Positions 32,012 through 54,190 of a DNA stretch of 64,000 bases are shown in pieces (position 1 is the first letter of the stretch; every line of letters starts with the position of its first letter). Made by a program: the position numbers and the translations under genes. The stretch spans positions 1 to 64,000 of the IMG/VR virus record IMGVR_UViG_3300010297_000002. One strand, 5' to 3'. The stretch is from a virus. The notes below the pieces were generated by a model. It was given only the letters and a program-made list of their open reading frames with translations, searched no databases and was not told the origin of the DNA.

Positions 32012-32039
32012 TCCGTGGGTAAGCTCACGGGTTTTTTTT
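32012..32039 (+). terminator. Intrinsic terminator after the DNA polymerase gene
   Basis: CCGTGGG-TAAG-CTCACGG stem followed by G and T8. Confidence 0.85.
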
Positions 32040-32105
32040 CTTTAATAAAAGGGAGGTAATGAACCCCTTTTGTTCTACGGAAAATACTATATTCGGAAGG
32101 ATCTG

Positions 32106-38100: not shown

Positions 38101-41100
38101 TTGATAGGTCCTTTAATGTTAAAAAAGTTCTAAGTTTTGTAAAAGACTGGGAATCTCCCGATCAGAAAAAGAAAAGAAAGAAGCAAGAGGCTATCCTTCA
38201 ACGTAATCTAGATATCCAAAAGATGATGGCTTTCGAGAAAATGCGTCAGATCGCTCCCAGTTCTTATGCAGCTAAAGCGAGTGAGTATGAAAAGCTTATG
38301 AAAAAGCTTAAGGTTTCTTCATATGAAGAGCTTTTAGAAAAGTTTGATTCAGATTTCGTGAAAAACAAAGATAAAGCTGCGGTTAAAAAATTGAATGACT
38401 TCAAGACGATACGAGCTACTTTAGGCAGTGAGTGGGGCGAAGGCCTTACTGGTAAATCACGTATAATGAATATCTCCAGAAAGATCGATAAGCATTACCG
38501 TGAGCTTATGGAAGAGTATGATAATCTTATGTTCTCCCTCATGGACGGGGAGGATCGGGGAGACTTACGTACCGTTAAGAAAGAGTTCGAGGAATTAAAA
38601 GCCCGTGTGGACTCTAAGAAGTTTCTCAAGGACACTCAGCTTTTTAAGAAAATTTATGAAAGCACAGGTCAATCTAAGAAGACTGACTTCGGTCTTAAGG
38701 ACGCTTTAAAGTTCTCTGAGTACTTAAATTCCGGTTATCTCGGTAATCCGAAAGTTCTAGAAAAGTTCGGCTCATCTCTGAAGCCTGAAGATTCGAAGCA
38801 GTTTTTCAGGAGAGTGGGTCTTTTCTTTGCGACAATTAATAAGATCCAGGCGGACCCTAAGTTGAGGGACAAGCTTAGTTCAAAAATTAATAACAAGCTG
38901 AAGGGATTGGATTCCAGCCTCAATTCAAATCAAGATAAGGTAGATAGTCTGAGACTTTACTCAGAGTTTGATTTTGATTGGGATACTTATACAAAATCTC
39001 TTCGTGATTCCAAAAACCTCAAAGATCAGTACGATCGCTTTATAGAGATGTTGAAGGACCCGAAGGCTATGGCTTCCTTTTTGGAAGTTTCCGAAGCTTC
39101 TAAAGAAAAGATCCATCAGTTCTTGTATGGTCTTATGGACCCTGAAAGTACAAAAAATGAGATAGATGCGTATAACAGTCGTAAGGATAAGTTCGATGTT
39201 AATGTTTCTTCAGACGAAGTACAGGAGATCATGGACGCGGCTAAGTCGGGGAATCTGAGAGACAAGTTCAAGGATTTCTTCGATCTTCTTGATAGTGATC
39301 CTGAATTTAAGAGTTTTTTGTATAGATTGTCCGGCGGTTTGATGAAGGCCGCTTCTCAGTTATTGTCCAAGAAAGCTCTATTAGCCTCATTACAAGAAGA
39401 CTTGATCGATGCTAAAGAATCAGGAGATGCCGATTCCGAGGCTAATGCTCAATCCCTGGTGGACAGTCAGAGAGATGAGGTCTCCAAGGCTAATGCACGT
39501 TTGGGGGCTATTAAAGAGAGAGTTTTGGCGTTGTTGAAGTCCAAGAGCGTAAAAGGTAATCATAAGGGCTTGTTGGCTTTCTTGATTTCGGATATGGATC
39601 AGATTCAAGAACAAGCTGCCGCTTATAAGGATCGATCCGATAAATTATCTTCCAATGCCAACCGGTTCAGAATGGATCTTGATAGGTACAAGATGGACTA
39701 TGAAGAAGAGCGTTCTAAGTTTACTCGAGAGTTCGAGGACATTCCGGAGGATCAGGCCCGTACTGAGATTGAGTTGCAAGGAGATGCTGCGGCTCAAAAG
39801 GCTATGCGTGATGAGTTTAACCTTGCCCAGTCGGAGGTTATAAAGTTAGGCAACCAGAAGAAGAGTTTCCTGAACCAAGCCGGACCGCTCATGGATCTCT
39901 TGGAAGGCGGCGGGTCTAATGAAGCCATTAATAAGCACCGAGAAAAGTTTATGGATCAGTATAGAGGCCTTATTTTGAACTTGGATCGTTACGTTAAGGA
40001 CCCGAAGACTAAGGCTGTTTTGGAGAAGCATCTCTATAACCCTGTGTTTGAGAGCTTCAATAAGGTGGCTCCTAAGGTTAAAAAGGTTCTTCAAATGTTC
40101 ACTATTAAGAGCATGGAAAAGATCGCGGACTCCCTTCTATCAGATGACAAGGGCCTTAACGAGAAGGCTGCTGGGAACTTAAACTCTTTAGCGGATATTT
40201 TCGAAAAAGCTGATAAGTTTGGACCGATCTATGATCGAGAGCTTCAAAAGTACTTAGAGAATCCAGATCCTTCCAAGAATGGTGAGATAAAGAGTATTTT
40301 CGCTCTTCCAATGACTTTTGATCTAAGCACTCTACGCGATGTAAGAGGCTCGGATCTGATCCGCCAGAATTTTACAGCGAAGGCAGACAAGTTCGTAGCT
40401 AAATTGGCAGAAAAAGCAATACCTGTTTTTAATGCAAAACGCAATGAAGCCCTCGAGCAAGCCAAGTTCACACTGTTTAAGAACAATAAAGACATTCGTC
40501 CTTTCGACAAGTTGGAGAGCCTTCAGAAGGGATTAATTAATGAACTTTACTCTTTGAATAAAAAGAAACGTGAGCATGAGGGCGAGTACTTGGAGCTCTA
40601 CAATGCCCAGAAGTCTTCCGATGATCGAATAGAGGAAGGTGGATTTATGGGAGAGCTTCGAAAAAAGTTATCCGATATTTCATCTCAGATAGCTCGCAAG
40701 GAGGAAGAACTGTCTAAAGTTCGAGCGGAAATGAACCAGTACGAGGAAGCCGCAGATCTATCACTCAAAGGGGAGTTAGAGAACTTGGAGAGTGCTATAA
40801 GACCTTTCATCGGATCGACTTTTGGGAGATCCCTTTTTAAACTGGGTAAAGTTGGGGATCTCAAGAATCTTGACGAATTGGCTTCGTTTAAGTCCAAGGT
40901 TATTCCTAAGATTAACAATGCGATTAACGCCGGTAAGTGGGCTTCCGCGTATGCTCTGTATAAGGATAATCTGGATAACCTTAAGAATTATCCAGATAGT
41001 TATAAATCTTTGCGTAGAAAGTTTAAGAAGTACGCTAAAGACATCCAGCTTCGGTTTGATTTTCAGGTACAGGGTTCGGACTCTTTAGAAGGATTGCAAG

Positions 41101-41789
41101 AAGAACTTCAGACTCTTCTAGATAAGAGAATGAAGATTGAGAAGAAGCGAAGTGCTGCTATCAGGAAGTTGGAGTCTGAGCAGGCTCGCGACGCTAAACG
41201 AAGAGTGACTATGAACGAGAGGATTGAATCTCTTAATCAGAAGATCCAAGAATCTAAAAATCCAGATTCTCAGGTAAATCTTAACAGAAAGACCAGAATC
41301 CAGGAAATCGAGAACAGCTTAGCTCGTATGGACACGAGCAGTGATCGAGCTGTTGAGGAATTCGAGAAGATCGAGAAGTTCTTCGAACCCATCAATAATG
41401 GTGTCAAAAAACTTGTGGCAAAGATTAAAGAGCATAAGAAAAAGTTCGACAATGGCCATAACTCTTTGAATGCTCTTTATGCCGAAATCCACGCTAATGA
41501 GGACCTTCTACGAACGTTCGCGGACGGTCCGACTCTGTTTAAGATGGGTTTAATCAATCGCCCTGGTCCAAGGGGTGGTAGGATTAAGAGTCCTACGGCT
41601 AAGGGACTAGAAGCACAGATTAAGCGTGAGAATAAAATAGAAAGATTATTACGGCGGTTCAGTACCGCTATCGAGGAAGATATTTCGATTACTTCTTCTC
41701 TCAAAGATTTAGATTTATTGAAAAGATTATTAGTTAAGGAATTAACGAACCTACTTGAGGATGAGAGACTATCGGATTTGTTAGTTTAA
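32106..41789 (+). CDS. Giant (approx. 3.2 kaa) K/E/D-rich helical orphan protein, possibly an internal virion/ejected protein
   Basis: Uninterrupted ORF. ATG 32106 preferred (GGAAGG upstream) over TTG 32070. Extensive coiled-coil character, no recognisable catalytic motif. Confidence 0.55.
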   Translation: MKDLNTKNLRKTVIANVVDQVMGRDFSTFLKLKPDSQLEVLSKLVSEYGQDQRVLVKRAALSQIKSMIGVVAASREEDAADQGRFRERDVDVLNDVFSSEVRGLASRAILDQNKALAEQLDNKWGLGFFSELGTDTIKEIVAKFKDFWTKTNFNKQKKTSRVFDEKFETFREAVSDYKDLEDEFKEAAAKRAQMVKDLQTFTQDPEVKQEAYDTFDVYENKDLILKELNTFIDRLGRFGIKSLLDSKQFAAFVDFYQDDLPGIGAALFKASSIFDKNKDFLNDTKVKVYDEDRQEAVESSLSKILSENFNRDIYLLTLDENIRELEEYKSELKDEEPTERNLKELRKVEKSIESFRARQEDLEESRSWIVDGLENLDIYGMIKGDLQKFRKKATEEFLAKRKEIEDRERVDSDGNKLPRMAPPKLTSQDKREIEKATEKYRRKLLEKARQEATEKGLGFPEAVRKDLGVLRESVNHIQETLFDFKSYIEKSRNNAIDSLQEITRGEVDWDSVNAVEDYERIQNMLTRRESTIRKRLDFFGYSDYRIFIDRSTGYTAITLDGKTVPVRDLMKSITKSDLLDRYERGSNSPKESFNADYDSTLSDLVSEVGDVLDKQVEKEDLEAMKSKFTELISGQNEKGELDEDSSRRAFEFMTDLSSSLALFDKKVQLEEALELSNNGEKSGLDVNIKALAPAIFRKDKAPKNPMLPDLDETTYQAFMAKVFGINVDKPLEDLSDEEVQAMSFDPVLLKKISDSESFRDVSSMVTKAPGILKDLESAEESQIYREILSDVTKSIKAMDDVRLDTVGGSSGGEGSSPSDLVQDSIEILKSAIAGLPTQVFTTEGMEGSSVFQSLNQEALTFLAESVIDFPQFFNPETVRVFKDDAAAVKAARDALAANSKAIRDLEESKGNSKKSHKKLAEPEPTSSLEELRAKTPKLEKDLKDKKRVLEQKLKSINILDSLDLGAQGAGDASTVRVFSNMVEKLQKVVSNSLQMKVLEELAVLNRDKIEERAGQLLLIADAVKTQAQDSDIAAKWAKKLKTEKGDSVLAMVKEALEYFNPDSSKGDFAKYLQKSSVNNKGEASLPSVFALTSEGKAVAGSESISKLAVSALMSDVFDESMRDQDKAAKVYDEIGSWQVNAVDPEKAKLLKDFRSSLEDNFIKENSSDWRAHEAAKKEKFKAERKLAKSSAGLSELRRKLKKYADLLEKGPKDQETLEKKIKRLSNEKAMLKRIDKQKNSMVELEAQFKELHAKCGPLVEAERAHSTAKREYGELGSIPSVSLSNEDRKNIEERKAELRQIMEENFTKIKESKERGDCSIDEFNKVSSDYFSKKEKLEKLEAEYATREDALQRAESQLRKLKSSMGAAPGRLSKLRDAFDKDNPDSKLSKHYQLIDERNKAREDYASTYGVIAKGMADIDSKVEEKRQSLFKDRIAESGVLSSIQNDLNDESLIADKIDELGLSSILEPVLDKVPTDLLNVGDRFKFEEENTGVLNPHPDGGTILSPEASSILGDLVASKFTTSLPESSSVRRFFEDSMLSSSNLDKLDLGKYVRQTVSNTAVDFARKAQRDKGMSTSLVDRLSGNKRGETALIMELASGEDVEETLISQEQVTEGKDQAEGITGQDVLQDIENQDQDQEREDMLRKRTPDKKDESDLGDSRVEQMVNGFRVEMDRVLPILANETLFLDKGEKLKKDLEKFNMPQLQKAFGFTDQSQKNYEEILATKRALYDQLGRNGFVNLFKNGARLERVIGRGPFKEMSEEIFSSKEAYAKTSPVYILMKYFILPYVDIWMSGASDPQAVLKDKIMKEVESGILSLSMQKSFDEFMQDLSNNKSSQERAKAIFEEANEELLKSIINPKEMNNFVVGRVFNKTDFLAALSVFNMPYMKALVPKDGKLYFIPETDTREQFLSANPEKAKEMLDSLGSDPSGKFYANKSAPVIYELDFTKGIKLKETNPLFKAAISKVRANTVEDFMKALDPVFQDYFKEIYQKNVDRFDRSFNVKKVLSFVKDWESPDQKKKRKKQEAILQRNLDIQKMMAFEKMRQIAPSSYAAKASEYEKLMKKLKVSSYEELLEKFDSDFVKNKDKAAVKKLNDFKTIRATLGSEWGEGLTGKSRIMNISRKIDKHYRELMEEYDNLMFSLMDGEDRGDLRTVKKEFEELKARVDSKKFLKDTQLFKKIYESTGQSKKTDFGLKDALKFSEYLNSGYLGNPKVLEKFGSSLKPEDSKQFFRRVGLFFATINKIQADPKLRDKLSSKINNKLKGLDSSLNSNQDKVDSLRLYSEFDFDWDTYTKSLRDSKNLKDQYDRFIEMLKDPKAMASFLEVSEASKEKIHQFLYGLMDPESTKNEIDAYNSRKDKFDVNVSSDEVQEIMDAAKSGNLRDKFKDFFDLLDSDPEFKSFLYRLSGGLMKAASQLLSKKALLASLQEDLIDAKESGDADSEANAQSLVDSQRDEVSKANARLGAIKERVLALLKSKSVKGNHKGLLAFLISDMDQIQEQAAAYKDRSDKLSSNANRFRMDLDRYKMDYEEERSKFTREFEDIPEDQARTEIELQGDAAAQKAMRDEFNLAQSEVIKLGNQKKSFLNQAGPLMDLLEGGGSNEAINKHREKFMDQYRGLILNLDRYVKDPKTKAVLEKHLYNPVFESFNKVAPKVKKVLQMFTIKSMEKIADSLLSDDKGLNEKAAGNLNSLADIFEKADKFGPIYDRELQKYLENPDPSKNGEIKSIFALPMTFDLSTLRDVRGSDLIRQNFTAKADKFVAKLAEKAIPVFNAKRNEALEQAKFTLFKNNKDIRPFDKLESLQKGLINELYSLNKKKREHEGEYLELYNAQKSSDDRIEEGGFMGELRKKLSDISSQIARKEEELSKVRAEMNQYEEAADLSLKGELENLESAIRPFIGSTFGRSLFKLGKVGDLKNLDELASFKSKVIPKINNAINAGKWASAYALYKDNLDNLKNYPDSYKSLRRKFKKYAKDIQLRFDFQVQGSDSLEGLQEELQTLLDKRMKIEKKRSAAIRKLESEQARDAKRRVTMNERIESLNQKIQESKNPDSQVNLNRKTRIQEIENSLARMDTSSDRAVEEFEKIEKFFEPINNGVKKLVAKIKEHKKKFDNGHNSLNALYAEIHANEDLLRTFADGPTLFKMGLINRPGPRGGRIKSPTAKGLEAQIKRENKIERLLRRFSTAIEEDISITSSLKDLDLLKRLLVKELTNLLEDERLSDLLV

Positions 41790-45525: not shown

Positions 45526-47355
45526 ATGTCTGAGATTATTCAAGAAAATAAAAACACTAACGCCAAAAAAGCCATACCCAATTACTCGGTGGGTTTGTCC
45601 CGAGCTGATCAGCTCGCTAAGGCCATCGTAAACAAGTATGGGGTTAACGTGAAGGTTGGGGAGTCTCCCTGCGTAGATCTCAAAACCAATACCATCTACG
45701 TACCTCCGTTCGATCCGAATGATGATACTGATGTTTCAAACATGATTCATTATATTGTTCATGAGGTTGGACACATCCTCTACTCGGATCAAACGGAGCT
45801 TCGTGGAATTAAGTTCAAGATCCTGAATGTGACCGAAGACCAAAGAATTAATGCCAAGCAAGAGTTGAAGTACGCTGGAATCAGTTTCAAGGTCATGGAG
45901 CAGAGAATCATGGATAAGATGGCTCGTTCCAATAAGAAGTCCCAGGAGAGGGTCGATGACTTTGTAAAGAAGCTAGAGGAGTCTGGTGTAGACCAGCTCT
46001 TTGGTATCGACAAAGAGAAGATCAAAGAGAACCAAGAGGCTATCGAGAACTTGAACATCTTCATTTCAGGTCTTCTGATGAAATGTCATGGTGTTGCTAA
46101 GGCTAAGATTAAAAAGCACTTCAAGAGGCAGGATTGGTGGCAGGCCTATGAGTCCATCGAGAGTCTTCTGGAGCATAAATGGGTGAAGATTCCGTCCTCA
46201 GCCCTGCTGGAGGATGATGCTGAGGCCATCTTCGATGCGATCAAGGATTTACTTCCTGAGAACTTCGAGAACGAAACTACGTCCGACGGGTCCCATGTGG
46301 TCTCCATGCCAGCGGATGGGTTCGGTCAAGGAGACCCAGCCGATCAATCTGATCAGGGGCAGCAAGGGGGCCAGGGCGGTGACCAACCTTTATCTCAGCA
46401 AGGGGGGACCCACTCAGAGAATGGTTTTTCTAATGAGGACTTGGAGAATAAAGTAAAGAACTCCTCTTGCCGTAGTGACAATGTCACTGAGGAGGAGTCC
46501 TGGTCCGATGGTGACAAGAACAACAACCCCTCTTACGGGACAAATCTCACTGATAGGGTTATGGAGAACACAACTTTCTACCGGTATAACCCGAACAGTC
46601 ATGCAGGTTCTTGGTCTCAGCGAGATCGTTTAGATCTTCGGTCGAAGATGTTCTACAACCGATTTCTAGATATGCTTCTAGTCGAAGACCAGATAGATCA
46701 TCAGGACGGTTATTCTTCTGGGAAGTTGGCCAAGCCTCATAAGATCATGACCAGTCCTCGAATCTTCTCTAAGATTCAAGATGGAGTTACTCATGAAAAG
46801 GTAGACGTAACGATTATTTGCGACTATTCCGGTTCCATGGGAGGTTACACCCAGAATGTGGCTGAAGTAGGAGGAGGGATTGCTTTGGCTTTGTCGAAGC
46901 TGCAGATCCCTCATCAGATGTTCGGTTACGACTCATCATATGGGAGTGACTGTAAGGTTTATGAGATAATTCCTTACAGCACTATATTTGATGCACGGAT
47001 GTGCGACGCTCTGTTTAAGATGAATTCTGGTGGAGGAACCCCGACCGGAGAGGCCTTGATGTATTGCTTGGAAAAGCATGTGTTACCCAAGCCTGGGTTT
47101 CGTAAGTTGGTGTTTTTGATTACGGACGGATGTCCGAATAATCCTTCTTACACGGAAGATATAGTTAAAATCTACCGAAGGTACAAGGACATCAAGTTAT
47201 CCGGTATTGGAGTGGGTAGTAGTTGTGAGAACCTACTCCGACATATACCAGACGCAATGCTGATGAAGGACTTCGAGCAGTTCACTGTCGAAGGGCAGCA
47301 GAAGTTCTTTAATGACCTGGAGAAATTCATGGTTGGCGGTCGCACAATAATTTAG
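45526..47355 (+). CDS. CobT-like vWA protein with N-terminal HExxH metallopeptidase-like domain
   Basis: HEVGH, NVTEDQRIN, acidic Gly/Gln linker, MIDAS DYSGS, GGTP, ITDG. Confidence 0.88.
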   Translation: MSEIIQENKNTNAKKAIPNYSVGLSRADQLAKAIVNKYGVNVKVGESPCVDLKTNTIYVPPFDPNDDTDVSNMIHYIVHEVGHILYSDQTELRGIKFKILNVTEDQRINAKQELKYAGISFKVMEQRIMDKMARSNKKSQERVDDFVKKLEESGVDQLFGIDKEKIKENQEAIENLNIFISGLLMKCHGVAKAKIKKHFKRQDWWQAYESIESLLEHKWVKIPSSALLEDDAEAIFDAIKDLLPENFENETTSDGSHVVSMPADGFGQGDPADQSDQGQQGGQGGDQPLSQQGGTHSENGFSNEDLENKVKNSSCRSDNVTEEESWSDGDKNNNPSYGTNLTDRVMENTTFYRYNPNSHAGSWSQRDRLDLRSKMFYNRFLDMLLVEDQIDHQDGYSSGKLAKPHKIMTSPRIFSKIQDGVTHEKVDVTIICDYSGSMGGYTQNVAEVGGGIALALSKLQIPHQMFGYDSSYGSDCKVYEIIPYSTIFDARMCDALFKMNSGGGTPTGEALMYCLEKHVLPKPGFRKLVFLITDGCPNNPSYTEDIVKIYRRYKDIKLSGIGVGSSCENLLRHIPDAMLMKDFEQFTVEGQQKFFNDLEKFMVGGRTII

Positions 47356-47357
47356 TA

Positions 47358-47386
47358 TTGACAATAGTTATTTGATAACTTAAGAT
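47358..47386 (+). promoter_or_regulatory. Sigma70-type promoter of the leader-tRNA operon
   Basis: TTGACA (47358-47363), 17-nt spacer, TAAGAT (47381-47386). Confidence 0.85.
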
Positions 47387-47393
47387 TAAGTAT

Positions 47394-47474
47394 ATGACTT
47401 ACAAGTTTTTGGTAAATAGTGATTCCAGTTCCTCTTCGGATTCAGATCCGAGGGGAGGGTTTCCTGTTCGCTAA
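47394..47474 (+). CDS. Ser/Asp-rich attenuator leader peptide MTYKFLVNSDSSSSSDSDPRGGFPVR (26 aa, not in the ORF track)
   Basis: ATG at the predicted +1. Codons 9-18 are AGT GAT TCC AGT TCC TCT TCG GAT TCA GAT. Stop TAA at 47472-47474, upstream of the terminator. Confidence 0.8.
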   Translation: MTYKFLVNSDSSSSSDSDPRGGFPVR

Positions 47475-47506
47475 AAATTAGCAAGTCATTTGCAAAAACC
47501 CTCACC
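47431..47506 (+). promoter_or_regulatory. Attenuator protector (1:2) and antiterminator (2:3) elements
   Basis: CTCTTCGGAT-tcag-ATCCGAGGGG hairpin. GAGGGTTT (47455-47462) is complementary to AAACCCTC (47496-47503), which overlaps the terminator 5' arm. Confidence 0.75.
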
Positions 47507-47530
47507 CGAAAAGGTGGGGGTTTTTTGTTT
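47494..47530 (+). terminator. Attenuator intrinsic terminator (3:4) immediately upstream of the tRNA genes
   Basis: AAAAA-CCCTCACC-cgaaaa-GGTGGGGG-TTTTTTGTTT. Confidence 0.88.
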
Positions 47531-47536
47531 TCATTT

Positions 47537-47609
47537 GGTTCCGTAGCTCAATGGTTAGAGTACCGGCCTGTCACGTCGGGGGTTGCGAGTTCGAGTCTCG
47601 TCGGAACCG
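47537..47609 (+). tRNA. tRNA-Asp(GTC)
   Basis: GGTTCCG/CGGAACC acceptor stem, CCGGC-ctGTCac-GTCGG anticodon arm, GTTCGAG T-loop. No encoded CCA. Confidence 0.95.
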
Positions 47610-47614
47610 TATTT

Positions 47615-47697
47615 GGAAGAGATCCGGCTAGATGAGGAGCACGCCTGGAAAGCGTGTGCGTTGAAAAGCGTTGCGGGGGCGGGACCTGCCTCTTCCG
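47615..47697 (+). tRNA. tRNA-Ser(GGA), non-canonical D and T loops
   Basis: GGAAGAG/CTCTTCC acceptor stem, CACGC-ctGGAaa-GCGTG anticodon arm, long variable arm. T-loop GGCGGGA instead of TTCGRAY. Confidence 0.75.
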
Positions 47698-47704
47698 TAT
47701 TTTT

Positions 47705-47787
47705 AGTAGGTTGGCCGAGTGGTAAGGTATACGGTTGCTAACCGTAAGTCTCCGTAAGGAGCGGTGGTTCGATCCCACCACCTACTG
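47705..47787 (+). tRNA. tRNA-Ser(GCT)
   Basis: AGTAGGT/ACCTACT acceptor stem, TACGG-ttGCTaa-CCGTA, long variable arm, TTCGATC T-loop. Confidence 0.92.
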
Positions 47788-47793
47788 CATTTT

Positions 47794-47879
47794 AGTAGAT
47801 CGGCCGAGTGGTTGAAGGCAGCCGCCTCGAAAGCGGTAGAACTTGATCAGTTCCGTAGGTTCGAATCCTACATCTACTG
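47794..47879 (+). tRNA. tRNA-Ser(CGA)
   Basis: AGTAGAT/ATCTACT acceptor stem, GCCGC-ctCGAaa-GCGGT, long variable arm, TTCGAAT T-loop. Confidence 0.92.
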
Positions 47880-47884
47880 TATTT

Positions 47885-47971
47885 GGAAGCGTGGCAGAGT
47901 GCTCTATTGCGTCTGATTTGAGATCAGATGATCCTTACCGGGGTCCGTGGGTCGGAATCCCACCGCTTCCT
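47885..47971 (+). tRNA. tRNA-Ser(TGA), partly non-canonical
   Basis: GGAAGCG/CGCTTCC acceptor stem, TCTGA-ttTGAga-TCAGA, long variable arm. T-loop TCGGAAT. D-loop lacks GG. Confidence 0.82.
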
Positions 47972-48034
47972 CTTTTATTTCTTTGATAATACGGCTTTTG
48001 GTAGAGAATCCTTCACTTCAACTCCAGGCAGGCA

Positions 48035-48547
48035 ATGAAAAATATCAAGATCAAGGTCAAAGGCTCCAAATTTGAGATGGACCAATCTCTCTATGACTAT
48101 ATCAATGAGATCGAGATCAAGGAAATTAAGACATTAGAAGAGGAACTTGCAGTCGAGAAGTTCCGATCCTTGAGAGACCTTTATCAAGAGTATATCCGAC
48201 CTGTTCAGCACGCTAAGAAAGCTTTTTCTATTTCGACTCCAGAAGTTCAGCTCGAAGTGGTTTTACAAGCCGACCCTCCTTCTCACAGAAACCTCATTGG
48301 GTTTCGTCGTGATGGTAAGGTAATTAAGGGTCAATTTTCGATCCCGGTTATTGTTGAAGGGGCTCAGGAGCGGGAAGTAGTGCCGTTCGTGAACTGGTAC
48401 ATTAACAGTTTTAGTTGTTTAATAAGATACCTACTTTGTAAGCAAGCTGGGGTGCGGGTTATCCAGCCTTTAGAAGACCGAAAAAACTGGAATCTTGAGG
48501 CAGGCAAGTTAAACCTGGACTTAGATTTCGTTGTTGTTTTTGAGTAG
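48035..48547 (+). CDS. Hypothetical protein
   Basis: 170-aa ORF. Confidence 0.5.
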   Translation: MKNIKIKVKGSKFEMDQSLYDYINEIEIKEIKTLEEELAVEKFRSLRDLYQEYIRPVQHAKKAFSISTPEVQLEVVLQADPPSHRNLIGFRRDGKVIKGQFSIPVIVEGAQEREVVPFVNWYINSFSCLIRYLLCKQAGVRVIQPLEDRKNWNLEAGKLNLDLDFVVVFE

Positions 48548-48552
48548 GTCAA

Positions 48553-51500
48553 ATGGCTAAGTTTAAAACCGTAAAGAGTAGATTAGATTTTCTAGATCAA
48601 TCCTTAATAGACTTGGATACCGCTCTTTCATTCGCCCCAGGCGGAGTGATCGATGCCCAAGTAGCGAATGGTCTGCAGAGAGTAGATTACCGTCGATTCA
48701 CTCGACTTCAGGATTTCCAACATTTGGTAACTGTAGGTCTTGGGAACACCGATGCCCTTCTCTCGGATGTGACCATGGCCTCGAGGATTGCAATAGCTCC
48801 TGCGGAAAATGGCCAGATCTCAGAGAGCTCTCAGTTCTCTTCTGTGACAGTCACTCAACCTCCTACTGGAGGAAGTCCTCAGCAGAAAACAATGGAATAT
48901 GATTTCTCTGCGTTCTCTTCTTTCTTCCCCGGATACACTTACACAGTAGTTCTAGAGTTGATCCCTCTTTCAGGACCGACTCCGGTTTCTTACGTTGCTC
49001 AACCTTCTGACACCACCCTGGTCGATATCCTTACGGGGCTAATTACAGAGCTCACAGTCAATGGTTACACTGGAAGATATGCTTTCTCAGTAGTCGGAGC
49101 CGGAGATACTCTACAAGTTGTTGGAAACACTCCAGGAGATGATTATCCTGTTGCATATGGTTTAGTTAACACTCCAGCTCCTAATACAATCTCTCCTACA
49201 GTTACCGTTCCAGCGATTACTGTGGGTAATACGGCTAAAATAATTGAATACAGTTTCGCGGCGATCTCTCTTCAGACTGGAGACTACTACACTCTCAGTT
49301 TAGAGAGTCCGGATATTCATGGACTTCAAGAGTTCACTTACAGAGTGAAGGACACAGATACAACCAAAGAGATCGTTTTAAACCACGTTAAGGATTCCGT
49401 ACCTGCCGAGCTTGAGGAAAGATACATAATCACGGTAGTTGCTCCGGATATTCTTAGAATCGAGAGTGTGGAAGTCGGAGATGATTTCCCTACCCGTGAT
49501 TTTGAAGTCATGACCGTAACAGAGACTCCAGCCGACTTCAATTCTATCGACTTCTGGTGGTTCAATCCTGTTTCCAAGGAATGGGAAATTTCCCCAGATC
49601 CTGAAGTAAACAATAATGACATTTTTGAATTCACTCGTAATGTTCGCACTTTCGATGAGTTGAAGAAAAACGATGGTGGGTTCTATTTCAAGTTTTGGAT
49701 CAACACAGACAATTTACCAGGGGCACCCGGACCGGCCACTCACCAGATTAACTTCTTTGATTTTGCTTACGGAGTGGACAATCGCCCGGTGTTCTACTTT
49801 ACCGAGATGTTGGATTCCCTGAACAGACCTCTTCCTACTGTCGAACCTATGGAGATTAACAACTACGTAGTAGTTTCTTCAGGATCTAAGGATGGAAACA
49901 ATGTTCTTTACCGTTTGATTATAGACCATGAAGAGTCAGGTAAGGATTGGAGACAGTCTCGAGTTTTCTGGAGAATCAATGGGGTAGCGGAGGAGTTTCA
50001 AGAAGTACCTGCTTACACCCCTAGAATGGATAAGCAGTGTACCGAAGCGGATTGGGTTCATAGTGTTCGAGCTTATCGCCTTCCACCAGAGATTTTCGAA
50101 GTAGTGGATACTCAGATTCACCTGGAGGCGAAGTTAGTCGATCAGGACGGGTTAGAGACCTTTGCTGATCAGATCTTGATTCTACCTAACCATCGTGTTC
50201 CTCAGATTGAGGAAGTCTTGGTTTCCGGCGTAGATACGTTTGACATACCCATCTCTGACTATATTGAGACCGGTGGTAATATTCGGATCACCAAAGCTTC
50301 TCCCACAGATTATCCCCAGGTAATTCTCGGAGAGACCCTTTCTGTAGAACAAGGTCCCCTTACCGAACTTCGTCAAGTTAAGGAAGTCACAGATACCTAT
50401 ATCGATATTTTCGGGGGTGTTCCTCCGTTTAATTCCGGTAATCCGCTTACTCTGAGGAAGACCGATGAGTTCGGATGGTATCCAGCAGAGGCTACTACCA
50501 TTTCGTCAGGTTTCTTTGATTTCACAGACCTTAATCGAGGTCTCCTTGGCGATTCTTCCGTTTTAAACCTAATCGAAGTTAATGATGTTGTGAGGCTGGC
50601 TCAGCTTAATGCTGGCGGCACAGCCTGGACTACTGTTGATATCGAAGTTTGTAGAGTCGGCCACAGCACCGGACCTACTTCTTCAATTGAGTTTACTCAA
50701 GGACCATATAGTTTAAACGGCCAGGGGTTCTCTACCAATGATAGTCTTTCCGATTATTTCAACATGGCGAACCCTCTTACTCTGCTGAGGATGGAAAAGA
50801 ATGAGCATTTTGAAGGAACATCTACTGTCGTTGAACATCACTATACAGATACTATTAGACCGTTCAGGTATGTCAATGATATTGAACTATTCGACGGAGC
50901 AAGTATTTCTCGGGCTTATATTACTTCTCACGATGAATCAACGGTTTTGATCGAGTTCACAACCTTAACTCTTCCTACCTTGGTGGAGGACATTAAAGCG
51001 TGGTCTTACGATCTATCAACTTTGGATCTAAACGATAAAGTTAGTGAGGTAGACTCGATCTATGAGAGATTCGTTCTGTTCATTGAGGATAGTACTGCTT
51101 TCGCTAATACCCAGAACTGCTCCAAGAGAATCTCATTGCCTCCTTACGAGGTAACTCTGGACATCAAGGAAGAGACCACTTTGAACCCTCTCGGGATCGC
51201 TAGAGTGTTCAACCCAAAGGCTCCCCAGCCTACAAATGCTATTCTTGATCCAGATTATACTCAGTTTAACGGGTTTGATTCTCCTTATCTGAACGTGATG
51301 AATTCTGATTTCACAGCTTTTCAGGCTGGGTCTTCTTTCAACAGCGGTAAGTTCGAGAACTACCCACAGTTGAAGTACGGGTTGCAAAACCAAGAGAACT
51401 CTTTTCAGTACATCGTCGGATTTACCAAGATGAAGCTGGACCAGGGACAAAACTATATTACGGTTTGGACAGACGATCACTTTCCAAAGATTGTGCCGAT

Positions 51501-53343
51501 CACTGTCGATACCGACGGTCAGGTAATTAGTATTGAGCTTACCGCAAAGACGGCTCCTATTCTGGCTGAGATCGCTGCTATCCAGGCCACAGTGGGTAAC
51601 ATCGACACCAACGTTGAGTCTATCCTAACCGAAGTTACTGCGATCAATACAGAACTGGTTACGGTAAATACTAATCTGGGATTGATTAATTCCGAGTTAG
51701 TTAATGTCAATACTCAGTTGGGGACGATCATTACTCAGGTTGGGGATATTCAAACTGATGTGGGCGTTATTCAAGGGGACGTTAGTACTATCCTAAGTGA
51801 GGTTAATCAGATCCTGACAGAAACTCAGGGACTCTATCCTTACATTGATGGTAAGACTACAGACATTATCAATGAAGTCCAGGCTACAGATTGCACTGCT
51901 GGAATAGCTGCGGTAGAAGTTAAGGTAGACCTTCTGAATGGTAAAGTAAATTCACTGCAGTCTGATACCGCGAACATAATCGGAATAACCACAGACACTC
52001 GAGATTTAGCTCAGGATGCTACTTTTGGTTTTGAAGCGACTAAGAATCTCCTGGATCAGGTGAACACCACTACAGTAGCCTCTAGAGCAGTTTTAGATAA
52101 TGCAAGTTACGGTAATGCCTCACTATCTACCAAGTTGGGAGCGATTAAGATTGTAGTCGATGATACTCTCGACCAGTCCCAGACTAATAACGCCGGAATC
52201 GGCCAAGTTTTGACCGACACTACGAACATCACCTCCGACATTAATGGAGTGAGTGCTCAAATTGTGTCTATGCAGGCGGATGTGGACGCTATTCAAACGA
52301 ATGTCCTTCAGTTGGCTGCTCAGAACAACACGATCGAGTCTGTTGTTCAGGACAACAATAACATCGGAACGAACACTAACAACGCTGTTGTTAGTATGCA
52401 ACTTGATGTTACTTCGATTAAGACGGACACTTCCAATATTCTGGCGGATGTTGCTGTTCTTGATTCTAAAGTCTCTACTACCCAGTCCGCAGTCAATTTG
52501 ATCAAAGCGGATACAGGAAGTCTTCTTACCGATACTGCAAATATTCGAACAGACACTACTCAATTACTTACAGATCTGTCTGCGGTGGATACCACCACAA
52601 CCTCGACTAATAGTGGTGTAGGAACTTTATTAGGTAATGAACCTACTAAGATAACCCTGATATCTCAGATTGATACGAATGTGATGACTTCTCTTGCAGA
52701 TACGGCTCAACTTAAGACAGACACAGCACAGATTTTGAGTACACAGTCTTCTACGGGTCCTCAGATTGATGGAATCGAGGCTGGGGTAAATCAACTTAAT
52801 GTGAACCTGACCTCTGTAACGAGTACTGTCAATGATACAAACCTTAAGGTTAAGGACGCTAGTACCGGCCTTCAGGCCACCAAAGCGGTCATTGATCAGA
52901 TCTTAGCTGACCTCACCACCCACCACACCACTGTGGATGGGAAACTGGATAATATTCAGACCTCGATCGACAATCTTCCTTTGAATACAGAGATTGTTCA
53001 GATCCTGGATATTGTTTCCAGCCCGACTTACGGTAATGAGGCGATCCAGTTGGCTGTCGGAGCACTACTTTCCCAGGTCGATTTCCAAGCAGAGATCGAC
53101 CAGTTAAAGGGAGCAGGTTTTGCTTCTGGTCCAGATTCATTGGCGGCTCAGTCAGCTAATCTTCAGACCTTGGTTTCAGGGTTGTACACTGTGGCGGACA
53201 TCTGGAATGCTCCGGACAGAACTTTGACAGAGGCCGTCGACTTGATCATCTCTCTTAGAGATCAATTGGATCGAATTGAGAATAATCAAGCAGATACACT
53301 AACTTACGATAAATTACATAACCCACCTGTGAAGGGTAGTTAA
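48553..53343 (+). CDS. Large virion fibre-like protein with beta-rich N-terminal domains and a long C-terminal coiled coil
   Basis: 1596 aa, Thr/Asn/Val-rich. Roughly the last third is heptad-like (VNTNLGLINSELVNVNTQLGTI...). C-terminal ADIW motif. Confidence 0.55.
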   Translation: MAKFKTVKSRLDFLDQSLIDLDTALSFAPGGVIDAQVANGLQRVDYRRFTRLQDFQHLVTVGLGNTDALLSDVTMASRIAIAPAENGQISESSQFSSVTVTQPPTGGSPQQKTMEYDFSAFSSFFPGYTYTVVLELIPLSGPTPVSYVAQPSDTTLVDILTGLITELTVNGYTGRYAFSVVGAGDTLQVVGNTPGDDYPVAYGLVNTPAPNTISPTVTVPAITVGNTAKIIEYSFAAISLQTGDYYTLSLESPDIHGLQEFTYRVKDTDTTKEIVLNHVKDSVPAELEERYIITVVAPDILRIESVEVGDDFPTRDFEVMTVTETPADFNSIDFWWFNPVSKEWEISPDPEVNNNDIFEFTRNVRTFDELKKNDGGFYFKFWINTDNLPGAPGPATHQINFFDFAYGVDNRPVFYFTEMLDSLNRPLPTVEPMEINNYVVVSSGSKDGNNVLYRLIIDHEESGKDWRQSRVFWRINGVAEEFQEVPAYTPRMDKQCTEADWVHSVRAYRLPPEIFEVVDTQIHLEAKLVDQDGLETFADQILILPNHRVPQIEEVLVSGVDTFDIPISDYIETGGNIRITKASPTDYPQVILGETLSVEQGPLTELRQVKEVTDTYIDIFGGVPPFNSGNPLTLRKTDEFGWYPAEATTISSGFFDFTDLNRGLLGDSSVLNLIEVNDVVRLAQLNAGGTAWTTVDIEVCRVGHSTGPTSSIEFTQGPYSLNGQGFSTNDSLSDYFNMANPLTLLRMEKNEHFEGTSTVVEHHYTDTIRPFRYVNDIELFDGASISRAYITSHDESTVLIEFTTLTLPTLVEDIKAWSYDLSTLDLNDKVSEVDSIYERFVLFIEDSTAFANTQNCSKRISLPPYEVTLDIKEETTLNPLGIARVFNPKAPQPTNAILDPDYTQFNGFDSPYLNVMNSDFTAFQAGSSFNSGKFENYPQLKYGLQNQENSFQYIVGFTKMKLDQGQNYITVWTDDHFPKIVPITVDTDGQVISIELTAKTAPILAEIAAIQATVGNIDTNVESILTEVTAINTELVTVNTNLGLINSELVNVNTQLGTIITQVGDIQTDVGVIQGDVSTILSEVNQILTETQGLYPYIDGKTTDIINEVQATDCTAGIAAVEVKVDLLNGKVNSLQSDTANIIGITTDTRDLAQDATFGFEATKNLLDQVNTTTVASRAVLDNASYGNASLSTKLGAIKIVVDDTLDQSQTNNAGIGQVLTDTTNITSDINGVSAQIVSMQADVDAIQTNVLQLAAQNNTIESVVQDNNNIGTNTNNAVVSMQLDVTSIKTDTSNILADVAVLDSKVSTTQSAVNLIKADTGSLLTDTANIRTDTTQLLTDLSAVDTTTTSTNSGVGTLLGNEPTKITLISQIDTNVMTSLADTAQLKTDTAQILSTQSSTGPQIDGIEAGVNQLNVNLTSVTSTVNDTNLKVKDASTGLQATKAVIDQILADLTTHHTTVDGKLDNIQTSIDNLPLNTEIVQILDIVSSPTYGNEAIQLAVGALLSQVDFQAEIDQLKGAGFASGPDSLAAQSANLQTLVSGLYTVADIWNAPDRTLTEAVDLIISLRDQLDRIENNQADTLTYDKLHNPPVKGS

Positions 53344-53355
53344 TAGGAGCGGAAA

Positions 53356-53814
53356 ATGGCATTGACATTTCCTTTATACAAAGATGATATTGAGCCTACT
53401 GTAAAGGCTATTCAACAAGAGCAGAGCTCCGGATCTTTTTTCGTAGCGGTATCTGCAGAACAAACAGTAACTGGATCTTCTTCACTGGATTTCAGTATGG
53501 CCGCTGCTGAGGGTGTAGAGACTCATCAGTTTAAGATGGGCCATATTGTAGTTACTTCTGAGGATGGGACTGGTGGTCTTCCAGGATGTTCTAAGTTTGA
53601 TCTTAAGATTTTCGAAAGAGCTGCGAGACTTCCTGGTGATTTAATTTATCAGCAGTCTAACTTGGATGCTTCTGAAATGAATCGTCTGGTTTTGAACGCA
53701 GATACTATTTTTGCCAACCGAGATGCTTCTCCCTCTGGAACAGTTTACGTGACGATCTCCAATAAAGATCTAACTGACAAGAAGTTCGTCATTGAGCTTC
53801 GCTGCTTTAAGTAA
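53356..53814 (+). CDS. Putative small virion structural protein
   Basis: AGGAG RBS. Beta-rich, follows the fibre gene. Confidence 0.4.
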   Translation: MALTFPLYKDDIEPTVKAIQQEQSSGSFFVAVSAEQTVTGSSSLDFSMAAAEGVETHQFKMGHIVVTSEDGTGGLPGCSKFDLKIFERAARLPGDLIYQQSNLDASEMNRLVLNADTIFANRDASPSGTVYVTISNKDLTDKKFVIELRCFK

Positions 53815-53826
53815 TAGGAGCTCTTT

Positions 53827-54132
53827 ATGGAACAACAGAACACTGTGAAGCCTCAGTCTAGGACTGAGAAAAGATGGTTTGAGAGCAAAAAGCTTATTGC
53901 TTTCCTGATCAGCCTTTACACTTATTACCTTTTGATTCCTTCCGGGAATCCAGATTGGAAGGTAATGGCTGTTAATGCGTGCTTTATCTTCTCGATGTAT
54001 GTAGCCTTAGCTTTCTTCAAAACTTATAAAGACGTTCAGCTTTTTCTAAAGCAGGTCGATGAGTTAATTGAGCCTAACACAGCAGGTAACAATGCTAAAG
54101 AAGCTAGCGAAGAAGGTTCTGATAAGAATTAA
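53827..54132 (+). CDS. Putative holin (2 transmembrane segments)
   Basis: KRWFESKK followed by two hydrophobic helices and a charged C-terminal tail. Confidence 0.5.
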   Translation: MEQQNTVKPQSRTEKRWFESKKLIAFLISLYTYYLLIPSGNPDWKVMAVNACFIFSMYVALAFFKTYKDVQLFLKQVDELIEPNTAGNNAKEASEEGSDKN

Positions 54133-54146
54133 ATAATCTTGGACTT

Positions 54147-54190
54147 AAGGCCCACACTTTGGTTAAATAGAGTGTGGGCCTTTTTCTTTT
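54147..54190 (+). terminator. Intrinsic terminator
   Basis: AAGGCCCACACT...AGTGTGGGCCTT stem followed by a T-rich tract. Confidence 0.8.

What the first reader, a model, noticed from the sequence alone, without database searches (positions are those of the whole stretch)
47358..47971. Leader-peptide attenuator whose control codons match exactly the tRNA genes it precedes: a candidate tRNA-shortage sensor for phage tRNA expression
Seen in sequence: promoter TTGACA-N17-TAAGAT, then an unannotated 26-codon ORF (47394-47474). Its codons 9-18 (47418-47447) are only Ser and Asp: AGT GAT TCC AGT TCC TCT TCG GAT TCA GAT. An intrinsic terminator (47494-47530) lies 6 nt before tRNA-Asp(GTC), Ser(GGA), Ser(GCT), Ser(CGA) and Ser(TGA). 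Every downstream tRNA has a cognate codon in the tract (GAT-GTC, TCC/TCT-GGA, AGT-GCT, TCG-CGA, TCA-TGA), and no other amino acid occurs in it. The RNA has classic alternative pairings: 1:2 CTCTTCGGAT/ATCCGAGGGG, 2:3 GAGGGTTT/AAACCCTC (antiterminator) and 3:4 CCCTCACC/GGTGGGGG+U tract. Established knowledge: this is the logic of the trp/his/thr/pheM attenuators, which control biosynthesis or synthetase genes. Inference: a ribosome stalled on Ser/Asp codons frees segment 2, blocks the terminator and lets the phage transcribe replacement tRNAs, whereas translation to the stop codon covers segment 2 and terminates. This would be an isoacceptor-level feedback switch that detects tRNA depletion, for example by host anticodon nucleases or tRNA-modifying toxins, and triggers counter-defence. 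I do not know of a described attenuator controlling phage tRNA genes; novelty is unverified.
Basis: partly seen in the sequence, partly recalled or inferred. Interest (0 to 1): 0.96.

Follow-up and report, generated by a model that had tools for sequence, protein, structure and literature searches.

The report
Ser/Asp leader attenuator before phage tRNAs
Just upstream of a phage's aspartate and serine tRNA genes lies a small RNA switch whose short reading frame holds ten consecutive serine and aspartate codons, so the phage may make these tRNAs only when they run short, a control not described for tRNA genes.

Summary
At 47358-47531 there is a sigma-70-like promoter, a 26-codon ORF that starts at the predicted transcript start, ten consecutive Ser/Asp codons, and a strong intrinsic terminator 5 nt before tRNA-Asp and three tRNA-Ser genes. 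A fifth, tRNA-Ser(GGA)-like element folds as a cloverleaf, but neither tRNA finder calls it.

The Ser/Asp run is far beyond chance: 0 of 100,000 shuffles reach it, and the next-longest run in the genome is 6. The terminator's 5' arm has a strong alternative partner upstream (-18.7 kcal/mol; 5 of 2000 shuffles reach it). With no ribosome, a 96-nt rod locks that partner away.

In folding snapshots, a ribosome at codons ~4-18 frees the antiterminator. A ribosome at codons 19-27 blocks it. The Ser/Asp tract is codons 9-18.

The switch architecture is therefore real. Ribosome stalling on Ser/Asp codons is the best reading (about 0.5).

Weak points:
- The ORF has no Shine-Dalgarno sequence, so translation would have to be leaderless.
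- No relatives could be found, so there is no covariation test.
- There is no usable expression evidence.

My literature searches found no attenuator in front of tRNA genes. The scan's earlier notes concern this same genome only.

The parts
47358..47386 (+). Sigma-70-like promoter: -35 TTGACA (47358-47363), 17-nt spacer, -10 TAAGAT (47381-47386). The predicted start is 47392-47394.
   Evidence: 10 of 12 matches. It is one of 12 sites of this quality on both strands of the 73-kb genome. It begins 3 nt after the stop of the upstream gene. The start position is inferred from the usual spacing of about 7 nt after the -10 hexamer.
47394..47474 (+). Candidate leader ORF of 26 codons. ATG lies at the predicted 5' end, there is no Shine-Dalgarno sequence, and the stop is TAA at 47472-47474.
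   Evidence: SD duplex is -1.4 kcal/mol; 73% of 500 random sites are at least as strong. The frame is closed upstream by TAA at 47376-47378 (read).
47418..47447 (+). Control tract: codons 9-18, 7 Ser and 3 Asp (AGT x2, TCC x2, TCT, TCG, TCA, GAT x3).
   Evidence: It is the only 10-codon Ser/Asp-only window in six frames of the genome. 0 of 100,000 shuffles reach it.
47394..47489 (+). 96-nt rod (anti-antiterminator). The 5' half, including the ATG and the tract, pairs with the 3' half, including segment 2 and the stop codon.
   Evidence: MFE of -59.7 kcal/mol with z = -7.96. Pair list. With no ribosome the antiterminator probability is 0.00.
47451..47462 (+). Segment 2, G-rich (GGGGAGGGUUU). 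It pairs either with the tract arm (47421-47436) or with segment 3.
47496..47507 (+). Segment 3, the 5' arm of the terminator (AAACCCUCACCC). It pairs with segment 2 to form the antiterminator (12 pairs; snapshot -19.6 kcal/mol) or with segment 4.
   Evidence: Duplex of -18.7 kcal/mol, reached by 5 of 2000 shuffles.
47494..47531 (+). Intrinsic terminator: 13-pair stem, 6-nt loop, U-rich tail. It ends 5 nt before tRNA-Asp.
   Evidence: -18.8 kcal/mol.
47536..47610 (+). tRNA-Asp (GTC)
   Evidence: ARAGORN; Rfam tRNA 66.9 bits.
47615..47698 (+). tRNA-Ser(GGA)-like element with a non-canonical T loop and D loop
   Evidence: Not called by ARAGORN or Rfam. The MFE is a class-II cloverleaf with anticodon loop CUGGAAA, z = -1.29.
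47705..47788 (+). tRNA-Ser (GCT)
   Evidence: 56.8 bits.
47793..47880 (+). tRNA-Ser (CGA)
   Evidence: 52.5 bits.
47885..47972 (+). tRNA-Ser (TGA)
   Evidence: 47.1 bits.
48035..54132 (+). Four protein genes (170, 1596, 152 and 101 aa) that lie downstream with no promoter-like site or terminator in between. They would share the read-through transcript up to the terminator at about 54148-54185.
   Evidence: Co-transcription is inferred.

Best explanation
This is a ribosome-mediated transcription attenuator, a leader-peptide switch. It gates transcription from its own promoter into the phage's Asp/Ser tRNA cluster and the genes behind it.

1. The RNA starts at or within 2 nt of the AUG, so the leader is translated, if at all, as a leaderless mRNA.
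2. If no ribosome loads, the first 96 nt close into a rod that holds segment 2. The terminator then forms and transcription stops 5 nt before tRNA-Asp.
3. If a ribosome loads and runs freely to the stop codon, it covers segment 2 and the terminator forms again.
4. If the ribosome is held on the ten Ser/Asp codons because charged tRNA-Ser or tRNA-Asp is scarce, it opens the rod but leaves segment 2 free. Segment 2 pairs with the terminator's 5' arm and the polymerase reads on into the tRNA genes.

The products, Asp and Ser tRNAs, relieve the stall. The circuit would therefore be a negative feedback on decoding capacity for two amino acids this phage uses heavily.

Shown: the sequence elements, their improbability, and the alternative pairings with their dependence on ribosome position in folding models.

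Inferred: promoter use, the transcript start, translation, stalling, and the kinetic competition.
For: (1) The Ser/Asp run of 10 codons was reached by 0 of 100,000 shuffles. It is the only such window in six frames of the genome, where the next-longest run is 6.

(2) The two amino acids of the tract are exactly the two identities of the adjacent tRNAs.

(3) The duplex between segment 2 and the terminator arm is -18.7 kcal/mol. It was reached by 5 of 2000 shuffles and 2 of 1456 natural windows. The genome's two other intergenic terminators have no such partner: 90% and 86% of shuffles do as well.

(4) Folding snapshots give antiterminator probability 0.00 with no ribosome, 0.83-1.0 with the A site at codons 4-17/18 (3-17 if the footprint reaches 14 nt), and 0.00 from codon 18/19 to the stop. 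The tract is the last ten codons of the permissive window.

(5) The antiterminator snapshot (-19.6 kcal/mol) is comparable with the terminator (-18.8 kcal/mol).

(6) The -10 hexamer ends 7 nt before the ATG.

(7) No promoter-like site lies between the terminator and the tRNAs or inside the cluster, where spacers are 4-6 nt. The tRNAs therefore depend on read-through.

(8) The phage proteome holds 8.1% Ser and 7.2% Asp.

(9) Leaderless short ORFs acting as attenuators have a precedent in mycobacteria (bioRxiv 10.1101/834739; title and start of abstract seen).
Against: - There is no Shine-Dalgarno sequence (-1.4 kcal/mol), although this phage's genes use one (median -5.75 against a background of -3.0). 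The AUG is also paired in the finished rod.
- At equilibrium the terminator wins for every ribosome position, so the switch rests on an untested kinetic argument.
- The promoter rests on a consensus match only.
- Two other terminators in this genome also sit directly before the next gene with no promoter between. Terminators inside gene arrays are therefore a general trait here and may be passed by another mechanism.
- Upstream transcription can also run into the leader, because no terminator follows the upstream gene.
- There are no relatives, so neither conservation of the frame nor covariation can be tested.
- In one other run the leader is identical, which gives no information.
- The leader is a single case. 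None of 27 tRNA sub-clusters in six other phage loci showed a comparable signal.
Confidence: 0.5

Rival explanations
1. A ribosome-independent attenuator. The same three alternative helices are flipped by something other than a translating ribosome: an RNA-binding protein of phage or host, a small molecule, or direct binding of tRNA. The ORF would be incidental.
For: The alternative-pairing design is real and is shared by riboswitches, PyrR-type and T-box leaders. There is no Shine-Dalgarno sequence. Weak whole-length similarity to such leaders appears in Rfam: PyrR 21.9 bits and rnk leader 19 bits.
Against: It leaves unexplained the in-frame run of ten Ser/Asp codons (0 of 100,000 shuffles), its match to the tRNA identities, the ATG at the predicted start, and the fit between tract position and the permissive ribosome window. 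No Rfam family comes near its gathering score, and T-box is not listed at E <= 10.
Confidence: 0.15
2. The element is not a switch. It is either a stand-alone small RNA (promoter, rod, terminator; about 135 nt) or simply the terminator and stabilising hairpin that close the upstream operon. Phage polymerase or an antitermination factor would then carry transcription into the tRNAs.
For: Promoter, strongly folded RNA (z = -7.96) and terminator is the usual anatomy of a small RNA. Weak whole-length Rfam matches are to small RNAs: GibS 24.7 bits and BTnc231 19.4 bits. Two other terminators sit inside co-directional gene arrays with no promoter after them, which suggests a general way of passing terminators.
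Against: It does not predict the strong complement to the terminator arm, which the other two terminators lack. It does not predict the Ser/Asp run or its match to the neighbouring tRNAs. All Rfam scores are far below the gathering thresholds.
Confidence: 0.2
3. Coincidence. A pyrimidine-rich hairpin arm with a loose 6-nt periodicity (TTCNNN x4) happens to read as Ser/Asp in one frame next to Ser/Asp tRNAs.
For: The genome has 3 other loci with 10-codon windows of at most two amino acids. The arm must be C/U-rich to pair with the G-rich segment 2. The full codon-to-anticodon cover adds little (about 30% by my hand estimate).
Against: Even shuffles of the arm itself never exceed 8 (0 of 100,000). 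For a two-amino-acid tract to match the two tRNA identities by chance is about 1 in 190 (my arithmetic). Several independent features all fit one model.
Confidence: 0.1

Closest known systems
Leader-peptide transcription attenuators of amino-acid operons (trpL, hisL, pheL, thrL, ilvL) and of pheST (pheM) in enterobacteria (recalled from established knowledge)
   Same: A short ORF with a run of control codons. Four segments form 1:2, 2:3 (antiterminator) and 3:4 (terminator plus U tract). Termination is the default when the leader is untranslated or fully translated. Control by two amino acids, as in thrL (Thr/Ile). The distance of about 75-110 nt from tract to terminator is in the usual range.
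   Different: The regulated genes are tRNA genes cognate to the control codons, not biosynthetic or synthetase genes. The leader has no Shine-Dalgarno sequence and would be leaderless. It is phage-encoded. There is no sequence homology: Phe_leader scores 21 bits against 55 and Thr_leader 18.4 against 55.
Polycysteine leaderless short ORFs that act as Cys-responsive attenuators in mycobacteria (bioRxiv 10.1101/834739; title and start of abstract seen)
   Same: The short ORF begins at the 5' end of the transcript without a Shine-Dalgarno sequence. A run of codons for the sensed amino acid controls the operon downstream.
   Different: Those control cysteine-related protein genes in a host where leaderless mRNAs are common. 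I did not read their mechanism in detail, so I cannot say whether it is terminator-based.
T-box leaders (recalled)
   Same: They sense the tRNA charging state and switch between terminator and antiterminator upstream of translation-related genes.
   Different: T-box RNA binds tRNA directly through a specifier codon and a conserved T-box bulge. Neither was seen here, and Rfam lists no T-box match at E <= 10.
Small ORF plus terminator units before tRNA clusters of phiCbK-like Caulobacter phages
   Same: A short ORF of 39-48 codons, then hairpins and an intrinsic terminator about 15-20 nt before a tRNA cluster. The ORF is open in 7 of 7 aligned phages. The peptide is enriched in amino acids of the downstream tRNAs: 31 of 44 (P = 1e-6) and 33 of 38 (P = 2e-7).
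   Different: My folds showed no ribosome-dependent switch, and the competing helix is not significant (59 of 1000 shuffles). The peptide holds 7 Thr and 3 His, although the phiCbK paper's passages say these phages lack Thr tRNAs and that His tRNA is found only in Colossus (PMC3556154). An Ala/Pro/Ser/Thr/Lys low-complexity peptide is an alternative explanation.

Membership tests
Leader-peptide (ribosome-mediated) transcription attenuator | Intrinsic terminator between promoter and regulated genes | tested here: met
   13-pair stem plus U tract at 47494-47531, 5 nt before tRNA-Asp. No promoter-like site lies after it.
Leader-peptide (ribosome-mediated) transcription attenuator | Mutually exclusive antiterminator that uses the terminator's 5' arm, and an upstream segment that can sequester the antiterminator strand | tested here: met
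   The 2:3 duplex is -18.7 kcal/mol and was reached by 5 of 2000 shuffles. The rod sequesters segment 2 when no ribosome is present.
Leader-peptide (ribosome-mediated) transcription attenuator | Short ORF with a run of control codons, placed so that a stalled ribosome frees the antiterminator and a ribosome at the stop blocks it | tested here: met
   Ten Ser/Asp codons at codons 9-18. The permissive window is codons ~4-18 and the blocked window is codons 19-27 in folding snapshots. This is a model result, not an experiment.
Leader-peptide (ribosome-mediated) transcription attenuator | The leader ORF is translated (ribosome-binding signal or proven translation) | tested here: inconclusive
   There is no Shine-Dalgarno sequence (-1.4 kcal/mol against a gene median of -5.75). 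The ATG lies at the predicted transcript start, so leaderless initiation is possible. There are no translation data.
Leader-peptide (ribosome-mediated) transcription attenuator | Read-through responds to the supply of the cognate charged tRNA | not testable with these tools
   This needs reporter or in vitro coupled assays.
Leader-peptide (ribosome-mediated) transcription attenuator | Frame and control codons conserved in relatives | not testable with these tools
   No relatives were found in any collection.
T-box riboswitch | Match to the T-box covariance model (specifier loop and T-box bulge) | tested here: not met
   Not listed among Rfam matches at E <= 10 or E <= 5.
PyrR-binding attenuator (RF00515) | Score at or above the family's gathering threshold | tested here: not met
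   23.4 and 21.9 bits against a threshold of 54; E = 2.2 and 0.42.
tRNA (the fifth element, 47615-47698) | Recognised by tRNA models, with a canonical T loop and D loop | tested here: not met
   Not called by ARAGORN at default or lowered thresholds, nor by the Rfam tRNA model. A cloverleaf with a GGA anticodon loop does form.

The most novel reading that the evidence does not exclude
A phage carries a self-regulating tRNA supply. A leaderless leader peptide made of the codons read by the tRNAs behind it measures decoding speed for each Ser/Asp isoacceptor class. It opens a terminator only when one of them is limiting, for example from heavy phage demand, serine exhaustion or host tRNA-cleaving defences. 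This would be the first attenuator known to control tRNA genes, with the tRNA products closing the loop. The short ORF plus terminator units before the tRNA clusters of phiCbK-like Caulobacter phages may be a second, looser form of the same idea.
Probability: 0.45. Interest if true: 0.9.

Novelty: new variant of a known kind. Interest (0 to 1): 0.78.

Why it matters
Phage tRNA genes are usually discussed as a fixed supplement for codon usage. More recently they are also discussed as a counter to host enzymes that cut tRNAs. How phages regulate these genes is hardly known.

A switch that reads out the very codons served by the downstream tRNAs would make tRNA production demand-driven. It would extend classical attenuation from amino-acid supply to tRNA supply, and it would give a compact natural sensor of isoacceptor availability.

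The element is about 180 nt long, self-contained, and can be tested directly with a reporter fusion in laboratory strains.

Tried and rejected
Relatives. None were found.
- blastn of the region against 50,697 phage records hit only the tRNA parts.
- tblastn of the upstream 609-aa protein found nothing. The DNA polymerase found only matches below 60% identity.
- The search for related loci found nothing with the 609-aa protein, its 2-sequence alignment A1, or the AAA ATPase. Collections searched were viral contigs, metagenome contigs and genome contigs.
- DNA patterns from the leader hairpin, from tRNA-Asp and a degenerate pattern for the tract found nothing.
- Protein searches found only the window's own proteins plus one 34%-identical homologue, P0002.

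Reads. Contigs of four runs showed the same phage, nearly identical. One DNA contig spans 47309-47522 with 2 differences, both outside the leader. No contig of the two RNA libraries covered 47392-47482, but contig gaps are not evidence, and these libraries may hold DNA.

Equilibrium constrained folds were uninformative: the terminator always wins. I replaced them with co-transcriptional snapshots.

Rfam gave no family near its threshold.

Control survey. I examined 27 tRNA sub-clusters in six phage loci (L003-L008). The tRNA in L002 lay too near the locus start and was skipped. No case compared with the window. The lowest shuffle counts were 11, 22, 73 and 94 of 1000.

Following the 11-of-1000 case led to the Caulobacter units. 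They stay ambiguous and I do not count them as support. The 20-codon ORF before tRNA-Glu/Asp of Ccr5 is not enriched in Glu/Asp (3 of 19).

Literature. Five searches found no attenuator before tRNA genes. My recollection that an E. coli tRNA-Phe gene might have such a leader could not be checked: the pheV search returned only coronavirus papers. The library lacks most subscription journals and old papers, so absence in print is not shown. Supplementary files were not opened.

Scripts at (time limit; index error) failed. They were rerun corrected.
Full report
**What the window is.** The window is the first 64 kb of a 73,249-base virus record, estimated 42% complete.
- Nearly all long ORFs lie on the + strand.
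- The region holds a replication module: helicases, a DnaB-like helicase, a family A polymerase and an exonuclease V-like protein.
- The genes just upstream of the finding are an AAA_5 ATPase and a VWA-domain protein.
- The lineage is an orphan. The nearest polymerase matches in 50,697 phage records are below 60% identity.
- The upstream 609-aa protein has one homologue, at 34% identity, among 5.8 billion proteins. The downstream 170-aa protein has none.

**The observation.**
- Promoter-like site TTGACA-17-TAAGAT at 47358-47386.
- ATG ORF at 47394-47474.
- Ten Ser/Asp codons at 47418-47447.
- A 13-pair terminator at 47494-47525 with a U-rich tail.
- tRNA-Asp(GTC) from 47536, then tRNA-Ser GCT, CGA and TGA.

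The claimed tRNA-Ser(GGA) at 47615-47698 is not called by ARAGORN, even at lowered thresholds, nor by Rfam. Its minimum-energy fold is a complete class-II cloverleaf with anticodon loop CUGGAAA, but 18 of 200 shuffles fold as well. I treat it as a tRNA-like element of unproven function.

**Is it more than chance?** The Ser/Asp run is the strongest signal.
- It is the only 10-codon Ser/Asp-only window in all six frames of the genome.
- The next-longest Ser/Asp run is 6 (3 cases).
- 0 of 100,000 dinucleotide shuffles of the leader reach it (maximum 7).
- 0 of 100,000 shuffles of the pyrimidine-rich arm alone reach it (maximum 8).

Three other loci in the genome have 10-codon windows of at most two amino acids. 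Low complexity exists, but only this one matches the two identities of the adjacent tRNAs.

The leader RNA folds far better than shuffles: -59.7 kcal/mol, z = -7.96, 0 of 200 shuffles as good.

**The RNA design.** The minimum-energy fold is a 96-nt rod (47394-47489) followed by the terminator. The rod pairs the AUG and the Ser/Asp tract with the G-rich stretch at 47451-47462 and with the stop-codon region.

That same G-rich stretch is complementary to the terminator's 5' arm (47496-47507).
- The duplex is -18.7 kcal/mol.
- It is reached by 5 of 2000 dinucleotide shuffles of the upstream 100 nt, and by 2 of 1456 natural 100-nt windows of the genome.
- The genome's two other clean intergenic terminators (about 32012 and 54148) have no such upstream partner: 90% and 86% of shuffles do as well.

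The anti-antiterminator / antiterminator / terminator arrangement is therefore a real property of this locus and not a by-product of having a terminator.

**Ribosome geometry.** Equilibrium folds with a masked footprint always keep the terminator. The same holds for classical attenuators, whose decision is kinetic.

I therefore folded only the RNA available at the moment the terminator's 5' arm has emerged but its 3' arm has not (to 47508), starting just 3' of a ribosome placed at each codon.

| Ribosome position (A site) | Antiterminator |
|---|---|
| No ribosome | probability 0.00 (rod intact) |
| Codons 4-16 | 12 pairs, probability 0.83-1.0, -19.6 to -26.3 kcal/mol |
| Codons 17-18 | partial (9 and 7 pairs) |
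| Codon 19 to the stop | probability 0.00 |

The table assumes a footprint edge 11 nt past the A site. With an edge of 14 nt the boundaries move by one codon.

The Ser/Asp tract (codons 9-18) thus fills the last ten codons from which a stalled ribosome would free the antiterminator, and it ends where stalls stop being productive. The terminator hairpin alone is -18.8 kcal/mol, so the two structures are of similar strength. This is the geometry of the classical leader-peptide attenuators (recalled knowledge).

**What speaks against translation.**
- This phage's genes use Shine-Dalgarno sequences: median duplex -5.75 kcal/mol over 50 ORFs, against -3.0 at 500 random sites.
- The leader ORF scores -1.4, and 73% of the random sites are at least as strong.
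- The -10 hexamer ends at 47386, so the expected start is 47392-47394, at or within 2 nt of the AUG at 47394. Translation would have to be leaderless.
- Leaderless initiation is known in bacteria, and leaderless short ORFs acting as attenuators have been reported in mycobacteria (bioRxiv 10.1101/834739; title and start of abstract seen). The host here is unknown.
- The AUG is paired in the finished rod, but its partner (47484-47489) is made about 90 nt later. That leaves a short window for ribosome loading (inference).

**Context.**
- No promoter-like site lies between the terminator and the tRNAs, inside the cluster (spacers of 4-6 nt), or between the cluster and the next gene.
- No terminator follows until about 54148-54185. 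Read-through would feed the tRNAs and four protein genes (48035-54132).
- The upstream gene ends 3 nt before the -35 hexamer with no terminator of its own. Upstream transcription also enters the leader, where the ORF would sit inside a longer RNA without a ribosome-binding site.
- Two other terminators in this genome also stand directly before the next gene's ribosome-binding site with no promoter after them. The phage may have a general way of passing terminators. This is the main support for the rival readings.
- The phage proteome is fairly rich in Ser (8.1%) and Asp (7.2%), which fits a need for these tRNAs.

**Comparative and expression evidence.** None could be obtained.
- Every search for relatives failed.
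- The same phage occurs nearly unchanged in other sequencing runs. One DNA contig spans the leader with no difference inside it, so there is no covariation to read.
- The RNA-library contigs cannot show starts, ends or absence.

**Survey of other phages.** I examined 27 tRNA sub-clusters in six phage loci for a run of codons cognate to the sub-cluster in the 220 nt upstream, plus a terminator. No case compared with the window, which scored 0 of 1000 shuffles and had a terminator.

The best case (11 of 1000) led to a recurrent unit in Caulobacter phages.
- An annotated hypothetical ORF of 39-48 codons is followed by hairpins and a predicted terminator about 15-20 nt before a tRNA cluster that begins with tRNA-Pro. 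It is present in 26 phiCbK-like records.
- The ORF is open in 7 of 7 aligned phages, with one in-frame 9-nt insertion.
- Its peptide is enriched in amino acids of the downstream tRNAs: 31 of 44 against a background of 0.343, P = 1e-6; and 33 of 38 against 0.46, P = 2e-7.

Against counting it as a second example:
- My folds show no ribosome-dependent switch there, and the competing helix is reached by 59 of 1000 shuffles.
- The peptide holds 7 Thr and 3 His. ARAGORN finds no Thr or His tRNA in that cluster in Ccr5. The phiCbK paper's passages say Thr tRNAs are absent from those phages and His tRNA occurs only in Colossus (PMC3556154; passages seen; the word 'attenuat' does not occur in it).
- An Ala/Pro/Ser/Thr/Lys-rich low-complexity peptide is common in GC-rich genomes (recalled).
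- The short ORF before tRNA-Glu/Asp in Ccr5 is not enriched (3 of 19).

I report this as an open side lead, not as support.

**Known families.** No Rfam family approaches its gathering score. The best matches are GibS 24.7 against 115, PyrR 21.9-23.4 against 54, Phe_leader 21 against 55 and Thr_leader 18.4 against 55. The element works like a leader-peptide attenuator but is not a sequence member of any curated family.

Five literature searches found no attenuator in front of tRNA genes, phage or cellular. The library lacks most subscription and older papers, so this is no proof of absence.

**Verdict.** The switch architecture is real. Control by ribosome stalling on Ser/Asp codons is the reading that explains the most features at once: the codon run, its match to the tRNAs, the ATG at the transcript start, the position of the stop, and the ribosome-position dependence of the antiterminator. 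I give it about 0.5.

Translation without a Shine-Dalgarno sequence and the lack of any comparative or expression test keep it from being higher. The link to host anticodon nucleases is speculation beyond the data.

The earlier notes of this scan concern the same genome only. The rod noted there was confirmed here.

Noticed in passing
L011:2777-3029 (Caulobacter phage Ccr5), L012:1578-1830 (phiCbK), L007:6507-6746 (CcrBL9): A conserved short ORF (39-48 codons, annotated hypothetical) plus predicted terminator sits directly before the tRNA-Pro-led tRNA cluster in 26 phiCbK-like records. The peptide is enriched in amino acids of the downstream tRNAs (31 of 44 and 33 of 38). The frame is kept in 7 of 7 phages although many replacements are radical. 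My folds show no ribosome-dependent switch, and Thr and His residues lack matching tRNAs in Shapirovirus.
   Followed up: partly
L011:1837-1992 (Ccr5) and L012:158-204 (phiCbK): A second unit lies before tRNA-Glu/tRNA-Asp: a TTGACA-like site, a 20-codon ORF and a predicted terminator. The ORF is not enriched in Glu/Asp (3 of 19).
   Followed up: partly
window 47615-47698: A tRNA-Ser(GGA)-like cloverleaf with T loop GGCGGGA and an unusual D loop. ARAGORN and Rfam do not call it. It may be a non-canonical tRNA or a decayed copy.
   Followed up: partly
window 32012-32040 and 54148-54185: Two more strong intrinsic terminators lie inside co-directional gene arrays, each directly before the next gene's ribosome-binding site with no promoter-like site after it. 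Neither has an upstream complement to its 5' arm. This suggests a general read-through or antitermination mechanism, or a phage polymerase.
   Followed up: partly
window 32070-41789, 6780-12002, 48553-53343: Very large ORFs (3239, 1740 and 1596 aa). PHROGs gave no match for the 1740-aa ORF, and Pfam gave only a sub-threshold YabA match for the 1596-aa ORF. The 3239-aa ORF was not searched.
   Followed up: no
window 47339 and 47370: These are the only two differences seen between this record and a contig of an independent marine run over 47309-47522. One lies in the upstream gene's end and one in the promoter spacer. The leader itself is identical.
   Followed up: no
L011:4184-4266 and L011:3192-3262: Two tRNA-like stretches in Ccr5 that ARAGORN does not call. 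The first scores 44 bits against the tRNA-Sec model (threshold 47). The second gives a minus-strand match to a model that also matched the antisense of true tRNAs in the window.
   Followed up: no
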